From IMG/VR virus record IMGVR_UViG_3300037400_003125, positions 1 through 64,000 of that record: a DNA stretch of 64,000 nucleotides. One strand, 5' to 3'. The stretch is from a virus (lineage: Duplodnaviria; Caudoviricetes). Below, in pieces: positions 15,001-21,000 of the stretch (positions within the stretch are counted from its first letter, which is position 1; each line of letters opens with the position of its first letter). The position numbers are program-made.

Positions 15001-18000
15001 TATGGTAAAGTCTTGTCGTATTGGTCCCCTGGCAAGGCTCCCAGCTGATCCGTGTCTTTGACCTGAACATTGTTTCTAACGAAAATAATTCTTTCAAATT
15101 CTTCATCTTGAACCGCCTCAAGCGCTGCTACTATACACATCATTGATTTACCGCTACCAAAATTACCCGTAATGAGTTTGAGCGGTATATCTTTCTGTTT
15201 TAACAGGTCCATCGCGCAGTATTGCTGTGGATTGCGCGGCTTCATATCACCAGTAAATTCGCTCCCAATCAAAGGAAATTTAAGCTTTTTTAGCTCTTCT
15301 TTCGCAAACCTATAATAATCTACGGCTTCATGTTGTTCATTTTCTATAATTAAATATTGATTTTCTAAAAGTTCAATATTACTATTGCCGCTATAAAATT
15401 GACCCATATCGTGGTCATTCAAAGTTAAAATTTTATAACCAGTATAATCCATCTACCCCTACCTCTAAAGCATTACACTAATATCTTCAACCCATTCGTT
15501 TACGATACCTTTTTCTAAAAGTTCGTCGCCTCGAATGTACCAATCTGTTGCAATATTTTTGTGTACTTCTTCTTCGGTATAAAGTGTATTTTCTATATAA
15601 AATTTTTCCATCTTCTCGACTTGCTGTTTATAATCTTCCATTGCCGCAGCAATTTCATTATAATTTCCACCCATATTCTGACAGCTTCCTCTATGAAGAA
15701 TGAAGTACGCATTAGGAAGTGCAAAACGCTTATGGCAACTTAAATAGATTAAGCTGGCCGCGGATGCCACCATACCGAGCGCGAAGCCATAGACAGGTGT
15801 TTTTGAAAGTCGAATCATTGAAACAAGAGTTTCTTCTATATCTAGGTCGCCGCCAGGACTATTGAAGAAAATTTTAATCGGCTGACGATTTTCTGGAGAA
15901 ATCGCTTTGTCTTCTCTATTCCACTCGATAATCTTAGAAACTATGTCTAAAAGACCATCTTTTATCTCACAATCTATCCAAATAACCCTATTGCGCAGAT
16001 CCTTAAATTCTTGGATCAAAGATGGGTCTGGTAGTTGTAAATTAGATTCAGGTATTCCTTGAAGTAATAATTCTATGAAATCTTCCATATAAGACCTCCA
16101 AACAAAATACTTTTCTATATAATAAGTAGAACTTCTTTACTTCTACTCGACTTTTTTAATAAAAAAGGGCACAGCTCACGCCATGCCCTTATTCTAAAAT
16201 TATATAATTTTAGAAAATTGAAGTAAAGAAATCTACAAAATCTTTATCCATATCTGTATAGGACATATGGAATGCACCGTAATCCTTGCAGAATTCGCGA
16301 AGAAGTTTATCGTACTTTGCGCGAGCTTCTACAGCAGCCTTGAGTGCGTCTTCTACTTCCTTTGCGCGAGCCTTACGAGTTTCAACTTTCTTTGCTTCAG
16401 CCTTAGCCTTTTCATCAGCAATCCTTTTTGCTTCGGCTTCGGCCTGCTCACAAGCTTCCTGTGAGTCAAAGAGTTTGTTAAGATTTTCAGAATAGAACTT
16501 CATTATAAACCCTCCTTTTGATTTATAATTTCTAAGAAAAAGACCGCCGTGATCAAGGGCGGTCTGTCCTAGGACTACTAGTGGAAGAGTTCTGATGTCT
16601 TCAATTCAGCTCTTGCTTCGGGTTTTCGTTATGGAGAGGTACTTCTGCGCCGTAGAGCTTTAACGCTTGCGCTTGCGTTACAGAAGATTCATGCTACGTA
16701 CACCTACATACTCCGCCAACACCAGTTATACAACAATTACAGTTTTAGGAAATTTTTTCTGCCCCTGCTAACCAATGGCACCAATAGGTTACGTACTATC
16801 GGACTACGGCTCAATATTTACGACTCGATACAAAGTCGGTTAAATAATGCAGTTTTAATGGTTACTCGCTAACGATTCCTGCTAACCATAGCGGCAAACT
16901 AACGACGTTTACTAGCGTACAACTATTGTTAAGTCCGTAGTTGTAATTACGTCATACTTACTTTCGTTTCTTTAGTATTTTAAGAGCAGCTCCAAATGAC
17001 TAAGCCACATATCTTCCACGTGAAGCCAGTGGTAGTTTAGTATGAAATCCATCCTCTCCTACTCTACACGATTTAATTTATAGAGGTCGAGTGCGAGACC
17101 TCTTGGCATCATTTTATTTTCTAAGAGGAGGGTGACGTCTCCTCTAGGAGGTAGGTCTCGAACCTACATTCTCACGCCTTCGGCGCAAGCTGGGATACAA
17201 AGTAAAGAGCGACTTTACTTACACACTTGCATTTGACGGCGTAGTCTTATCCTTTTAGATGACTCCCGTGCACCACCACTTGTATTGGGAGGTTGCTGCG
17301 GCGTTCCCATGGTTGCGGTCGGAGGATTCGAACCTCGTCCTCAGGTAATGAGCCTGATGAGCTACCATTGCTCCACCACCGCGATAAAATAAACTTGAGA
17401 ACTAAATAAATAAACTACTCTCTATTGAGCCTTCGCTCTACTGCGATTATATACCAACATATTCGACCAAATGGGAGATAAGTCTGAGCCAAAAGACCGT
17501 CGCCTTAAGACTTCTTACCCCAGCCGAAGCCAGTTCCATTAGAGGACTTTTTATACCCCTACCTTTCACGGGACATTCAGAAAAAAGCATTGTATCACCA
17601 ATCCTTGAATGTCACAAATTCTTTTGCTGCGCGCTTTCCGCTAATCGGAGTTGCATACAAGTGTTATACACGATTTTCATCGCTTCACCGCACAATCGGC
17701 TTGTTGGTATTTCCAGAGTTTATCACAGTCACCAGCTAAGACCTTATCTGGATTCAGCACAAGCTATTAACTTGGGCTTCTATTGCGCCGACCACTCGCA
17801 CACTGTCTTTGTCTATATATAACCCAGCATGGACAGCACGTATTTGACCGCTCTCGGCTCTTAACTTAAATAAGTCGCCTTATTAAGTGAGGTAGTATCA
17901 ACAAGTATCCTTGCTTTGTTTCCGCCCATACGGTTTTAAGCTTAGTTCATCTCAGCTTTCAAGTCGCTTGAAATCTGCACTGAGTTAATAAAGTTAGTTT

Positions 18001-21000
18001 ATTTATTTAGTTCTCAAGGTTCATATAAGAATGTCGTTTCCTTAATTCTTACATATATATTATATCAAAACTTTTAGAAAATTTCAAATTTTAATCTTTA
18101 CAATCTTTTAAAAGTCGTTGATACCAAATTGGATCTTTAGACTTTATTTCATCTAAAGAAAGAGTTGGCTCTTGAATTTGATTAAGTAAACCAGTTACAT
18201 CATAGTAAAAACCATTAGAGTCTTTACTCACAAAATGCCCACTCACGGGGAGATAGTAAATTTGTGTATTAAACTGGTCTTGTAAGATTCGCGCGAACCA
18301 ATAGCAATTTCCATTAAGAAATAAATCTTCGTGTCCGCGCCATCTGCGCTCAATAAACTCAAGAATCCTTTCCATTTCACAACAGTTACATCATACGCCC
18401 TATAACTGTAAAAGCCCACCTAAATGATACGTATGCTTCCTATATCCAAGGCCCCGAGGCTCGAAAGCAATTCGAGGACAAACTGGAATCTTAACTTTTG
18501 AACAAATATATTATATCAAATTTTCTGAGAAAAGTCAAATTTTCGGCCCAATGTTCTAAAAATTATTGGAGGTACATTTCGATGAGATACAGTGACTTTT
18601 CTACACGCTCCCTCGCCATAGTACCGATAAACCATTGTGGAAATACCTTGCGCGACCTTTATAAATTTTAATGGTGACTTCATTTTATTTGCCCTTTCTA
18701 TTAAATGGAGCTGGCGAAGGGAATCGAACCCCCAACCTACTGATTACAAGTCAGTTGCGCTACCAGTTGCGCTACGCCAGCATAAGGTGTATTGCGCTCC
18801 GGCAAAAGCGAATACACCCAATTAAGTCGGGTAGACTAATTCTACCCTCGGAGGTGCCCGCTGGATGGTGCGGGTTGGTAGTCGAGACTGGACTTGAACC
18901 AGTACTCTCACGCTTATCAGGCGTGCGCGTTGACCGTTTATGCTACTCGACTATAAAATCCGTTTACTTTGCAAGGTGGATTAACCTGCTAGAAGCTACT
19001 GTAGGATTCCCCTACAAGTACGTTGCCTAAGACTCTCTGGCTTCTAACCTCTCGCTGGAGGCGGCTCGTGGAGCGATACATGAGATTCGAACTCATACCA
19101 AAAGCTTGGAAGGCTCTTATGCTACCATTACACAAGTACCGCATAAAGTAATTGTCAATCACCGTTAGTGGATTGACTTCGGCCGCTAAGCGCGCGTTCA
19201 GGGGATTACTGGCTCCCTACCGTTCGTGTAGTCAACTACTACCAACGGTTGTTATCGTCCTAGCGTTGAATCAGATAACAGCTTGGCGGTTTATAACAGA
19301 ATCGAACTGTTAACCTCGGAGAGACAATCCGATATTTTACCATTAAACTAATAAACCAAAACGGCAGAACCATACTTTAACAGCGCGTTCACTTATTGAC
19401 TACTATCTACTCATTAATAATCTTTTTAATCTACCAATTTCATTAATGGGTCCGCATACCGAGGCTTGGTTTCTGTCATACACTCCTCAAATCTATAATG
19501 TTCTTACGATATTGGAACTTCGACCGACAATATTACTTATTTGGTAGTAAGGTCATTAAGCGACCAACCTCGATAGATTAAATTAACTATTAACTTTCAG
19601 CACTAAACTTTCAGTCGCCAGGTGCCAGGTGCCAGGTGCCCGAAGTGGGAATCGAACCCACACAAAACTGGCTCTAAACCAGTCGTCTCTGCCTAATTGG
19701 ACCACTCGGACATATGGAGGTTTTCGTGCGTAGCAACACTTATTCCTCTGTCAATGCGTCTTTATGGCTTTGCATCTTTTCCATGAACCCTTTTAGCTAC
19801 TTTGGGCTGGCGGGATATCCTGGACTTGAACCAGGGGCCTAATGATTAACAGTCATTCGCTTCCACCAACTGAGCTAATACCCCACAATCCGTCCATACC
19901 CGATTTACTTCCCAAGACGTATTCTATCGAACCCACCTACATTGTCCCAGTCGATAGTCCCATATCAACCAAAGTTGAATTTAATTTCTTATCTCATTTT
20001 GTACTTATATTATATCACATATTTATAGAAAATTCAAATTTTCGACCACTCTTTTACTTCAATTCCATTAGAACTAAACCACTCTTGGATTACTCTGCGC
20101 TCACTACATGGGTTTGAAGGTGCTTCATGTACAATAAAGCAGATACTCATTTCTCCTTGAACTCCTTCGAGGGCGCGAACCCGTTCGCAAATAGAATCGC
20201 AACGAGATAGAATCTCATTTATATCGAGTTGATTGAGTTGAAGTCGATAGTTCTGCAGAAACTTACACTGCGCGGGATCACCTGTGTTGCAACAGTCACG
20301 TCCTCGGCACTGATCGGCACACATAGGCCCCGGCGCAAACATCTCAGCACGAATTCCATTATATACGCCATTCTTATCCTTAAATATGTAATCTTGTCCT
20401 TTAAACTGATGAAACCACTTTGGATCCCATACAGCAGTACTTACAGGTACAATCGACTTATCCATAAATCTAATTTGATAAAAATAAGATGTATAAATTT
20501 TCATAATTCTTCCTTTATTTTGGCACGATCTGAAGGACTCGAACCTCCGTAGTCAGTTTTGGGGACTGACGTCCTAGCCGCTGAACGAAGACCGCAAATG
20601 GCGCGGAGGGCGAGATTCGAACTCGCGCGTCAATTACTTGACCTAACGCATTAGCAGTGCGTCCCCTTATAGCCTAACTTGGGTACCTCCGCATATGGCG
20701 CCGGTGGGAGGATTTGAACCCCCGCAGCGTTATTGGCGCCCTCTTTGTTTTCAAGACAAATCTCTTCAACCACTTGAGTACACCGGCAATTTAATGTGGT
20801 GGGCAGGGCTGGATTCGAACCAGCGAAAGCTCAGCTAACGGATTTACAGTCCGCCCGTTTTAACCACTTACCTACCTACCCAAAAATACAGACTATTGCG
20901 AACTTGCGGTCTGTAAGCGCGCCTCATTTAATTTCTCCTCGCAAGTTTAGAAAAACTATTTTGGGATATGGCGCAGTGCCATAACTGCGCAGATGGTGCG

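What the first reader, a model, noticed from the sequence alone, without database searches (positions are those of the whole stretch)
17394..18018. 577-nt RNA enclosed by a perfect 24-bp stalk that resembles an rRNA processing stem
Seen: exact inverted repeat 17394-17417 / 17995-18018 around an ORF-free, hairpin-rich interior. It is the first element after a consensus promoter and is followed by tRNA-Met. The 5' arm reads GAACCTTGAGAACTAAAT, like the (C/T)CTTTGAAAACT boxA/processing stalks of Firmicute rrn operons. Established: ROOL RNAs (~600 nt) and GOLLD RNAs occur in Firmicute/rumen phages next to tRNAs. Inference: a ROOL-like or new RNA matured by RNase III and transcribed under rrn-style antitermination, giving an rrn-mimicking operon with two large RNAs and a spacer tRNA.
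Basis: partly seen in the sequence, partly recalled or inferred. Interest (0 to 1): 0.75.

Follow-up and report, generated by a model that had tools for sequence, protein, structure and literature searches.

The report
ROOL RNA with rRNA-style stalk
This is a gene for ROOL, an already catalogued 600-base "nanocage" RNA, in a rumen phage's tRNA island; its closing helix starts with the same boxA word that likely host bacteria place before their ribosomal RNAs, which suggests, but does not prove, that ROOL is made and trimmed like an rRNA.

Summary
An exact 24-bp inverted repeat (27 bp with one mismatch, about 36 bp in the fold) encloses an ORF-free RNA on the minus strand, between a near-consensus promoter and tRNA-Met. 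The RNA is not new: it is a full-length ROOL RNA (Rfam RF03087, 290 bits against a cut-off of 99.1).

The rRNA comparison also holds up. A weight matrix trained only on 11 real Firmicute 16S leaders gives its best hit in the whole window at the outer base of the stalk's 5' strand (TGAACCTTGAGAACTA, 16.4 bits). It scores at least 12 bits in 18 of 47 non-redundant ROOL 5' flanks, against 2 of 235 control windows (p = 6e-14). The word lies outside the Rfam model.

Rumen metatranscriptome contigs cover the ROOL core (17420-17984) and the downstream RNA, but not the flanking genes. In three of four runs they also miss the outer stalk.

Binding of Nus factors and cutting by RNase III remain inference.

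I found no paper that links ROOL to boxA. This scan has already noted the same layout on other DNA (e1-5760460).

The parts
18059..18087 (-). Sigma-70-type promoter: TTGAAA, 17-nt spacer with TG, TATAAT. Predicted start near 18052.
   Evidence: 11 of 12 matches. A 79% identical copy of this promoter region lies at 18502-18543 (family D1).
18026..18051 (-). Weak AT-rich 7-bp leader hairpin (TAAGAAT...ATTCTTA) just before the boxA-like word, in the position of the boxB-like hairpin of rrn leaders.
   Evidence: Read from the sequence. Hairpins in the same position precede the boxA word in Clostridia and Peribacillus 16S leaders. The resemblance is weak and was not tested statistically.
18008..18023 (-). 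boxA-like word TGAACCTTGAGAACTA at the outer base of the stalk's 5' strand, just outside the Rfam ROOL model.
   Evidence: 16.4 bits with a matrix trained only on 11 rrn leaders. It is the best hit in the window on either strand.
17987..18024 (-). 5' strand of the terminal (leader-trailer) stalk.
17407..18008 (-). ROOL RNA, full-length match to RF03087 (model positions 1-574).
   Evidence: 290 bits against a gathering score of 99.1, E = 1.6e-65.
17420..17984 (-). ROOL core as found in RNA contigs of rumen metatranscriptomes (candidate mature RNA).
   Evidence: Contigs identical to the window span 17420-17984 (X4), 17420-17967 (X3) and 17427-17581 plus 17553-17984 (X2). Adapter-like letters are fused at 17420 (X4) and 17967 (X3).
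17389..17426 (-). 3' strand of the terminal stalk.
17310..17383 (-). tRNA-Met (CAT), 5 nt after the stalk.
16565..17295 (-). Second non-coding RNA stretch (a chain of structured modules), with no Rfam match.
   Evidence: No ORF. No Rfam hit at E up to 1. Fold z = -2.7. RNA contigs cover 16564/16568-17295. Earlier scan note e1-5769597.
16534..16565 (-). Terminator-like hairpin (8-bp GC-rich stem, 9-nt loop) followed by a T-run; the likely end of the non-coding unit.
   Evidence: Read from the sequence. The scan missed it because the loop is longer than 8 nt.

Best explanation
Shown: the element is a ROOL RNA gene, a known family of roughly 600-nt RNAs that form homo-oligomeric nanocages. It is the first unit of a protein-free transcription unit (ROOL, tRNA-Met, about 730 nt of further structured RNA) at the end of a 20-tRNA island in an uncultured rumen phage. 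Its ends pair in a helix of about 36 bp. The 5' strand of that helix begins with a 16-nt word matching the boxA word of Firmicute rrn leaders, especially those of Clostridia. In those leaders the word likewise forms the 5' strand of the helix that encloses 16S rRNA. The same word sits at the same place in about 40% of ROOL lineages. Inferred: while still single-stranded, the nascent boxA word recruits host NusB-S10 and the other Nus factors to RNA polymerase. This would carry the polymerase through about 1.5 kb of untranslated, heavily folded RNA and keep the 5' strand near the exit channel until its partner 600 nt downstream is made. The finished helix would then be cut by RNase III, as in pre-rRNA, and trimmed, releasing the ROOL core from tRNA-Met and the downstream RNA.
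For: ROOL identity: 290 bits against a cut-off of 99.1, whole model, one copy in the 95-kb phage record. Context: 20 tRNAs on the same strand, with holin, endolysin, Clp-type protease and PhoH genes nearby.

The rrn word from real data: Peribacillus 16S leaders have TGCTCTTTGAAAACTG at -99 and the 23S leader has GTTCCTTGAAAACTAGATAA. Ten Clostridia genomes have TGAACCTTGAAAATTG-type words that pair with the spacer just after 16S.

Matrix test: at least 12 bits in 18 of 47 non-redundant ROOL 5' flanks against 2 of 235 controls, p = 6e-14, and against 1 of 47 for the complement of the 3' strand, p = 6e-6. The window's site is the top hit of the window. Unbiased 7-mer counting also recovers TTGAAAA and ACCTTGA.

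Among the 18 sites, median pairwise identity is 0.75 in the word, against 0.25 upstream and 0.38 in the adjoining stalk. The word always lies at the outer base of the helix. Its 3' half is always paired and its 5' half is unpaired in about half of the cases.

Host tracking (one case): Ruminococcus callidus has an unusual rrn variant starting AGTAT, and its own ROOL has AGTAT too.

RNA: contigs in rumen metatranscriptomes cover 17420-17984 and about 16565-17295 but not the flanking protein genes. Three runs lack the outer stalk.

Mechanism in rrn operons: PMC8632103.
Against: No binding, antitermination or cleavage data exist for any ROOL. A single 16.4-bit hit is not significant genome-wide, because 4 of 20 shuffles of the window reach it somewhere. 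The case therefore rests on position and on the family-wide enrichment. About 60% of ROOL lineages lack the word, including four Peribacillus-unrelated chromosomal copies in Peptostreptococcaceae that have their own promoter. The word is therefore dispensable. Contigs cannot prove RNA ends, and a fourth run (a variant strain) has a contig running through the 5' strand up to 18082. In the finished helix the word is base-paired, so it could only act during transcription. Rho is not essential in many Firmicutes, which weakens the need for antitermination.
Confidence: 0.7

Rival explanations
1. The word and the long helix serve only processing or stability. The helix is a nuclease substrate or a protective clamp. 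It resembles rrn leaders because both are read by the same host maturation enzymes, without any role for Nus factors or antitermination.
For: The word lies inside the helix. A long terminal helix is general in ROOL: median 31 bp against 15 for shuffled partners. RNA contigs of three runs lack the outer helix.
Against: The sequence is conserved on the 5' strand only: 18 of 47 against 1 of 47 for the complement of the 3' strand. The 5' half of the word is often unpaired. A pure duplex signal should be symmetric. The word is the one that NusB-S10 reads in rrn operons (PMC8632103).
Confidence: 0.2
2. The TTGAnA core is a -35 promoter box of an internal ROOL promoter, and the contig end at 17984 is a transcription start.
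For: TTGAGA resembles TTGACA. RNA contigs of two runs end at 17984, about 27 nt downstream of it.
Against: Only 1 of 18 sites has a usable -10 box at a spacing of 16-18 nt, and the window's best is 3 of 6. The promoter scan lists no such site. The conserved TGAAC before the core is not part of a -35 box but is part of the rrn word. The 3' half of the word pairs with the trailer, so it is transcribed. Several sites directly follow a tRNA.
Confidence: 0.04
3. The match to boxA is a chance or compositional resemblance in AT-rich DNA, without function.
For: Shuffles of the window reach 16.4 bits somewhere in 4 of 20 trials. Another 16.2-bit hit lies at 27521-27506, apparently within coding sequence.
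Against: The location was specified in advance. The enrichment across ROOL lineages is p = 6e-14 against matched controls of the same composition. The word is conserved amid diverged flanks.
Confidence: 0.08
4. It is a miniature inverted-repeat transposable element.
For: It has terminal inverted repeats.
Against: The arm occurs only as this pair in the window. There is one ROOL in the 95-kb record. The flanks ACCACCGCGATAAAAT and CATATAAGAATGTCGT show no target-site duplication. The interior is a conserved RNA family.
Confidence: 0.01

Closest known systems
ROOL RNA (Rfam RF03087; Weinberg et al. 2017, PMC5737381; cryo-EM octameric nanocage, Kretsch et al. 2025, PMC12286853)
   Same: Full-length covariance-model match, with all conserved blocks and the variable internal linker. 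It sits in a phage next to tRNAs and came from a rumen sample, as did the founding members.
   Different: Nothing in the core differs. The Rfam model holds only the inner 16 or so base pairs of the terminal helix. Here, and in most relatives, the helix is about twice as long, and its base carries a boxA-like word that I did not find described in print.
Leader of Firmicute rRNA operons: promoter, hairpin, boxA, and a leader-trailer helix enclosing 16S rRNA that RNase III cuts (mechanism reviewed in PMC8632103)
   Same: The same order of parts, and the same word (window TGAACCTTGAGAACTA against Clostridia TGAACCTTGAAAATTG). The word forms the 5' strand of the enclosing helix, and a tRNA follows the trailer.
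   Different: The enclosed RNA is ROOL, not rRNA. There is no second boxA before the downstream RNA. No experiment shows Nus binding or RNase III cutting. Many ROOLs lack the word.
boxA elements used by phages for host-polymerase antitermination (lambda nut sites, PMC8632103; the T7 boxA downstream of its early promoters, PMC3709561)
   Same: A phage carries the host's boxA word just downstream of a host-type promoter.
   Different: Those elements serve protein-coding early transcripts. Lambda also needs N protein and boxB. Here the transcript is entirely non-coding and the word is part of a processing helix.
GOLLD RNA (large ornate phage or prophage RNA near tRNAs; 14-mer nanocage, PMC12286853)
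   Same: Same genomic niche (tRNA islands of phages; the GOLLD env-38 copy lies downstream of a Met-tRNA), and also a large structured RNA of unknown function.
   Different: Unrelated sequence and fold. No GOLLD match was found in the window.

Membership tests
ROOL RNA (RF03087) | Covariance-model score at or above the curated gathering score, over the whole model | tested here: met
   290 bits against 99.1, model positions 1-574 of 574, E = 1.6e-65.
ROOL RNA (RF03087) | Conserved sequence blocks and a multi-junction, pseudoknotted layout aligned to the consensus | tested here: met
   The alignment shows AACUCAGUG at the start of P2, UUCUGAAUG...GUGAAAG, GCUCAGACUUAUCUCCC and GUAGAGCGAAGGCUC all in place, with only scattered non-standard pairs.
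ROOL RNA (RF03087) | Located in phages or prophages, often beside tRNA genes | tested here: met
   The window is part of a 95-kb virus record. Twenty tRNAs lie on the same strand, with tRNA-Met 5 nt after the stalk. 12 of 47 relatives have a tRNA within 70 nt downstream.
ROOL RNA (RF03087) | Self-assembly into a homo-oligomeric cage (octamer or hexamer) | not testable with these tools
   Needs cryo-EM or native gels (PMC12286853, PMC12990946).
rrn-type boxA / nut-like leader | Sequence match to the boxA word of rrn leaders of the host group | tested here: met
   16.4 bits with a matrix built from 11 rrn leaders only. The leave-one-out range for rrn leaders is 9.0-21.0 bits. It is the top hit of the window.
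rrn-type boxA / nut-like leader | Position: downstream of a promoter, upstream of the stable RNA, in the leader strand of a leader-trailer helix | tested here: met
   Promoter at 18087-18059, word at 18023-18008, helix 18024-17987 with 17426-17389. Real rrn operons show the same layout.
rrn-type boxA / nut-like leader | Conserved among homologous loci as a strand-specific sequence | tested here: met
   18 of 47 against 2 of 235 controls (p = 6e-14) and against 1 of 47 for the complement of the 3' strand. About 60% of ROOLs lack it.
rrn-type boxA / nut-like leader | Binding of NusB-S10 and processive antitermination | not testable with these tools
   Needs binding assays and terminator read-through reporters.
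RNase III processing stalk | About 20 bp or more of nearly perfect double-stranded RNA formed by the sequences flanking the mature RNA | tested here: met
   24 bp exact, 27 bp with one mismatch, about 36 bp in all.
RNase III processing stalk | The abundant mature RNA lacks the stalk | tested here: inconclusive
   Contigs of three RNA runs stop at 17420 and at 17984 or 17967, with adapter-like letters fused at two of these ends. A fourth run has a contig through the 5' strand to 18082. Contigs cannot prove ends.
RNase III processing stalk | Staggered cleavage by RNase III, lost in an rnc mutant | not testable with these tools
   Needs an experiment.
MITE / transposon with terminal inverted repeats | Multiple copies and target-site duplication | tested here: not met
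   The arm occurs only as this pair. There is one ROOL in the record. The flanks are not duplicated.
GOLLD and OLE RNAs | Covariance-model match | tested here: not met
   No match at the gathering score in the window, nor at E up to 1 in 15500-24500.

The most novel reading that the evidence does not exclude
ROOL RNAs, and perhaps other large phage RNAs laid out the same way, are made by taking over the host's rRNA production line. A boxA word in the leader would load the Nus-factor antitermination and chaperone complex onto RNA polymerase. The leader-trailer helix would then be cut by RNase III. On this reading the cage-forming RNA is produced at rRNA-like rates and folded co-transcriptionally, as 16S rRNA is. 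The variant of the word would also report the host lineage.
Probability: 0.35. Interest if true: 0.7.

Novelty: new member of a known kind. Interest (0 to 1): 0.5.

Why it matters
The function of ROOL is an open question, despite atomic structures of its nanocage and its rRNA-like abundance in one bacterium. If ROOL genes carry the host's rRNA leader signals, three things follow.

- **Biogenesis:** it becomes directly testable with standard genetics, using nusB and rnc mutants and point mutants of the word.
- **Abundance and folding:** it would help explain how such an RNA can be made in very large amounts and how ends 600 nt apart can pair reliably.
- **Host assignment:** the variant of the word may help assign uncultured phages to host groups. 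Here the TGAACCTTGA form points to Clostridia.

On the practical side, the Rfam model stops about 13-30 nt short of the real ends of the gene in many members. If the signals turn out to be non-functional, this is simply one more ROOL in a rumen phage.

Tried and rejected
1. Using the circular-RACE ends of the L. salivarius "ROOL" (Cousin 2017, PMC5643018) to place processing sites. The pMP118 locus (NC_007930, 176000-180500) gives no RF03087 match at the gathering score and no hit with my nhmmer profile. This is so even though a review counts it as a ROOL by structure (PMC12990946). I therefore did not use its ends.

2. blastn of three ROOL loci against GenBank phages found only the flanking tRNAs, so no cultured ROOL phage with a known host was obtained.

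3. A literature search by sequence word returned only unrelated papers.

4. The 16-base ROOL pattern in genome contigs gave mostly chance hits. The hits were filtered with an nhmmer profile.

5. I considered a tmRNA reading of the stretch after tRNA-Met, because relatives carry a tmRNA downstream. There is no tmRNA hit at E up to 1 and none from ARAGORN.

6. The -35 promoter reading of the word is not supported.

7. The MITE reading is refuted.

8. Host rrn leaders could not be recovered for S. danieliae, Butyrivibrio, Faecalibacillus, two Romboutsia species and a Lachnospiraceae MAG. Host tracking therefore rests on R. callidus alone. Bacterium D16-76 shows no lineage-specific agreement.

9. 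Parts of the locus without RNA-contig cover (18094-18700 and 16400-16476) are only a weak sign that the contigs are RNA rather than DNA.

10. No joint indicating a circular RNA was seen, but contigs could hardly show one.
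Full report
**What is there.** The window is the first 64 kb of a 95,329-bp IMG/VR virus record. The DNA and its RNA occur in bovine-gut (rumen) samples. At the reported place repeat finder gives an inverted repeat, 17391-17417 / 17995-18021: 27 nt, one mismatch, 577 nt between the arms. All relevant features lie on the minus strand:

- a promoter-like site, TTGAAA-17-TATAAT with an upstream TG, at 18087-18059
- the stalked element
- tRNA-Met at 17383-17310, the last of 20 tRNA genes that run from 23017
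- about 800 nt without an ORF
- a terminator-like hairpin at 16565-16534
- a 97-aa ORF

Neighbouring genes are phage-like: holin, endolysin-like, Clp-type protease, PhoH, YunG-like.

**Identity.** cmscan against Rfam 15 gives a full-length ROOL match (RF03087) at 18008-17407 on the minus strand: 290 bits against a gathering score of 99.1, E = 1.6e-65, model positions 1-574. It is the only copy in the record. The alignment shows all conserved blocks. ROOL was described in 2017 from cow rumen data as an RNA of about 581 nt, found near tRNAs in phages and prophages (PMC5737381). It forms an octameric nanocage and its function is unknown (PMC12286853).

**The stalk is longer than the catalogued one.** The Rfam model includes about 16 bp of the closing helix. 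In the fold of 18027-17385 the helix has about 36 bp (18024-17987 with 17426-17389; z = -5.8). I collected ROOL loci with two conserved ROOL words from IMG/VR and from GTDB genomes. I confirmed them with Rfam and with an nhmmer profile, which gave 119 matches. Of these, 70 were full-length with 90-nt flanks, and they reduce to 47 non-redundant loci. Their main terminal helix has a median of 31 bp, against 15 bp when the 3' flank is shuffled. A long leader-trailer helix is therefore a family trait, and this copy is typical.

**The boxA resemblance, tested with real rrn operons.** I did not rely on memory. I fetched 16S loci from a Peribacillus genome and from a sample of 61 Clostridia genomes.

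- In Peribacillus every 16S leader has TGCTCTTTGAAAACTG at about -99, whatever promoter lies upstream. Its continuation pairs with the spacer right after 16S. The 23S leader has GTTCCTTGAAAACTAGATAA.
- Ten Clostridia genomes have words such as TGAACCTTGAAAATTG, again as the 5' strand of the 16S leader-trailer helix and often preceded by a small hairpin.

This is the rrn boxA. Its Peribacillus form differs from the E. coli boxA only in a few positions (that comparison rests on my own knowledge). In E. coli, boxA nucleates the NusB-S10 antitermination complex. [quoted passage not shown]

A 16-nt weight matrix was trained on these 11 leaders only. Its best hit in the entire window, both strands, is at 18023-18008 (minus strand), TGAACCTTGAGAACTA, 16.4 bits. 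That is exactly at the outer base of the stalk's 5' strand and just outside the Rfam model. One hit alone would not be significant, because 4 of 20 shuffles reach that score somewhere.

**Family-wide test.**

- The matrix scores at least 12 bits in 18 of 47 non-redundant ROOL 5' flanks. The controls give 0 of 47 on the antisense of the same flank, 0 of 47 in the 3' flank, 1 of 47 on the complement of the 3' flank, and 0 and 1 of 47 in two interior windows. Pooled, p = 6e-14.
- Counting 7-mers without any rrn knowledge also picks out TTGAAAA and ACCTTGA in the 5' flank.
- Among the 18 sites, median pairwise identity is 0.75 in the word, against 0.25 just upstream and 0.38 in the adjoining stalk. 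The consensus is TGaACcTTGAAAAtT. Choosing sites by score inflates the first figure, so the control windows are the fair comparison.
- The word always lies at the outer end of the helix. Its 3' half is always paired, and its 5' half is unpaired in about half of the lineages. Together with the 18-against-1 asymmetry between the strands, this points to a strand-specific sequence signal rather than a duplex signal.
- It is not a -35 box: only 1 of 18 sites has a fitting -10 box, 9 have a separate promoter-like -10 box 20-43 nt upstream, and 4 directly follow a tRNA.
- One host-tracking case: the rrn leader of Ruminococcus callidus has an unusual variant, AGTATCTTGAAAATTGAAC. The ROOL in that genome has AGTATTTTGACAATCGAAT.

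Limits: about 60% of ROOLs lack the word, including four Peptostreptococcaceae copies with their own promoter.

**Expression and ends.** Six bovine-gut metatranscriptome runs hold part of the locus. I laid four of them on 16400-18700.

- The three 2019 runs, with sequence identical to the window, give contigs over 17420-17984 or 17967 (the ROOL core) and over about 16565-17295 (the downstream RNA).
- They give nothing over the YunG-like gene (18094-18700) or the 97-aa ORF, and nothing identical to the window over the leader and the outer stalk.
- Loose letters fused at 17420 (X4) and 17967 (X3) read like Illumina adapter ends (my own knowledge), which would mean real fragment ends.
- Position 17420 is the junction between the inner 7-bp helix and the outer 29-bp helix on the 3' side.
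- A fourth run, from a variant strain, has a contig from 17554 through the 5' strand to 18082. So a form that keeps the leader also exists, or that run holds a precursor.

Contigs cannot prove ends. I rate this as a moderate hint that the outer stalk is removed, and as good evidence that the unit is expressed as stable RNA.

**Reading.** The likely mechanism is borrowed from rrn operons and is not shown here. The TGAACCTTGA form of the word matches Clostridia rather than the Bacilli form.

**Novelty.**

- The RNA itself is known.
- I found no paper that holds both ROOL and boxA, and none that links ROOL and RNase III, within a library that lacks most subscription journals.
- Phage use of a host boxA is in print for lambda and T7 (PMC8632103; PMC3709561).
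- This scan has already described the same layout for a ROOL in another genome (e1-5760460) and for several unclassified large phage RNAs. I ran my family test before reading those notes.

Noticed in passing
window 16565-17295 (-): The ORF-free stretch after tRNA-Met is present as RNA contigs in four rumen metatranscriptome runs. The contigs end repeatedly near 17295 (14 nt after the tRNA) and near 16564-16568 (the foot of the terminator-like hairpin). It has no Rfam match.
   Followed up: partly
window 17150-17166 (-): A perfect T-arm-like hairpin (5-bp stem, TTCGAGA loop) sits inside the downstream RNA, without a tRNA call from ARAGORN or Rfam. An earlier first-reader note (e1-5769598) proposes a tRNA mimic here.
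   Followed up: no
L278 (L. salivarius pMP118, NC_007930 176000-180500): The locus of the abundant L. salivarius lncRNA, treated in the literature as a ROOL (Lsa ROOL hexamer), gives no RF03087 match at the gathering score and no hit with an nhmmer profile of 12 ROOLs. Sequence models therefore miss this branch of the family.
   Followed up: partly
L008, L009, L010, L013, L014, L015, L020, L025, L027: In one group of ROOL phages a tmRNA gene (about 418 nt, 81-87 bits) lies about 1.2 kb downstream of ROOL in the same tRNA array.
   Followed up: no
L171, L123, L154, L156, L212, L059 (5' flanks of ROOL): A second conserved upstream element ending in GATTTCGACTAA (the 7-mer TTCGACT occurs in 9 of 47 flanks and 0 of 282 controls) precedes ROOL in a subset of lineages. 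It may be the 3' end of another conserved RNA.
   Followed up: no
window 17995-18010 (-) and relatives: The 7-mer TAAATAA is strongly enriched in the 5' strand of the stalk just after the boxA-like word (19 of 47 against 2 of 282). rrn leaders continue with the similar T(G/A)AAC(A)G after boxA, so the resemblance may extend beyond 16 nt.
   Followed up: partly
window 18051-18092 and 18502-18543: Two promoter regions are 79% identical over 42 nt, including the sequence downstream of the -10 box. Short contigs from other organisms in the RNA runs match 18047-18081 and then diverge, so this looks like a shared phage promoter cassette.
   Followed up: no
window 27506-27521 (-): The second-best boxA-matrix hit of the window (TGAACTTCGAAAAGTA, 16.2 bits) lies within the structural-gene region. 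It is probably chance.
   Followed up: no
L002 2674-2897, L016 7151-7384: Group I introns (69-86 bits) occur in the tRNA islands of two other ROOL phages.
   Followed up: no
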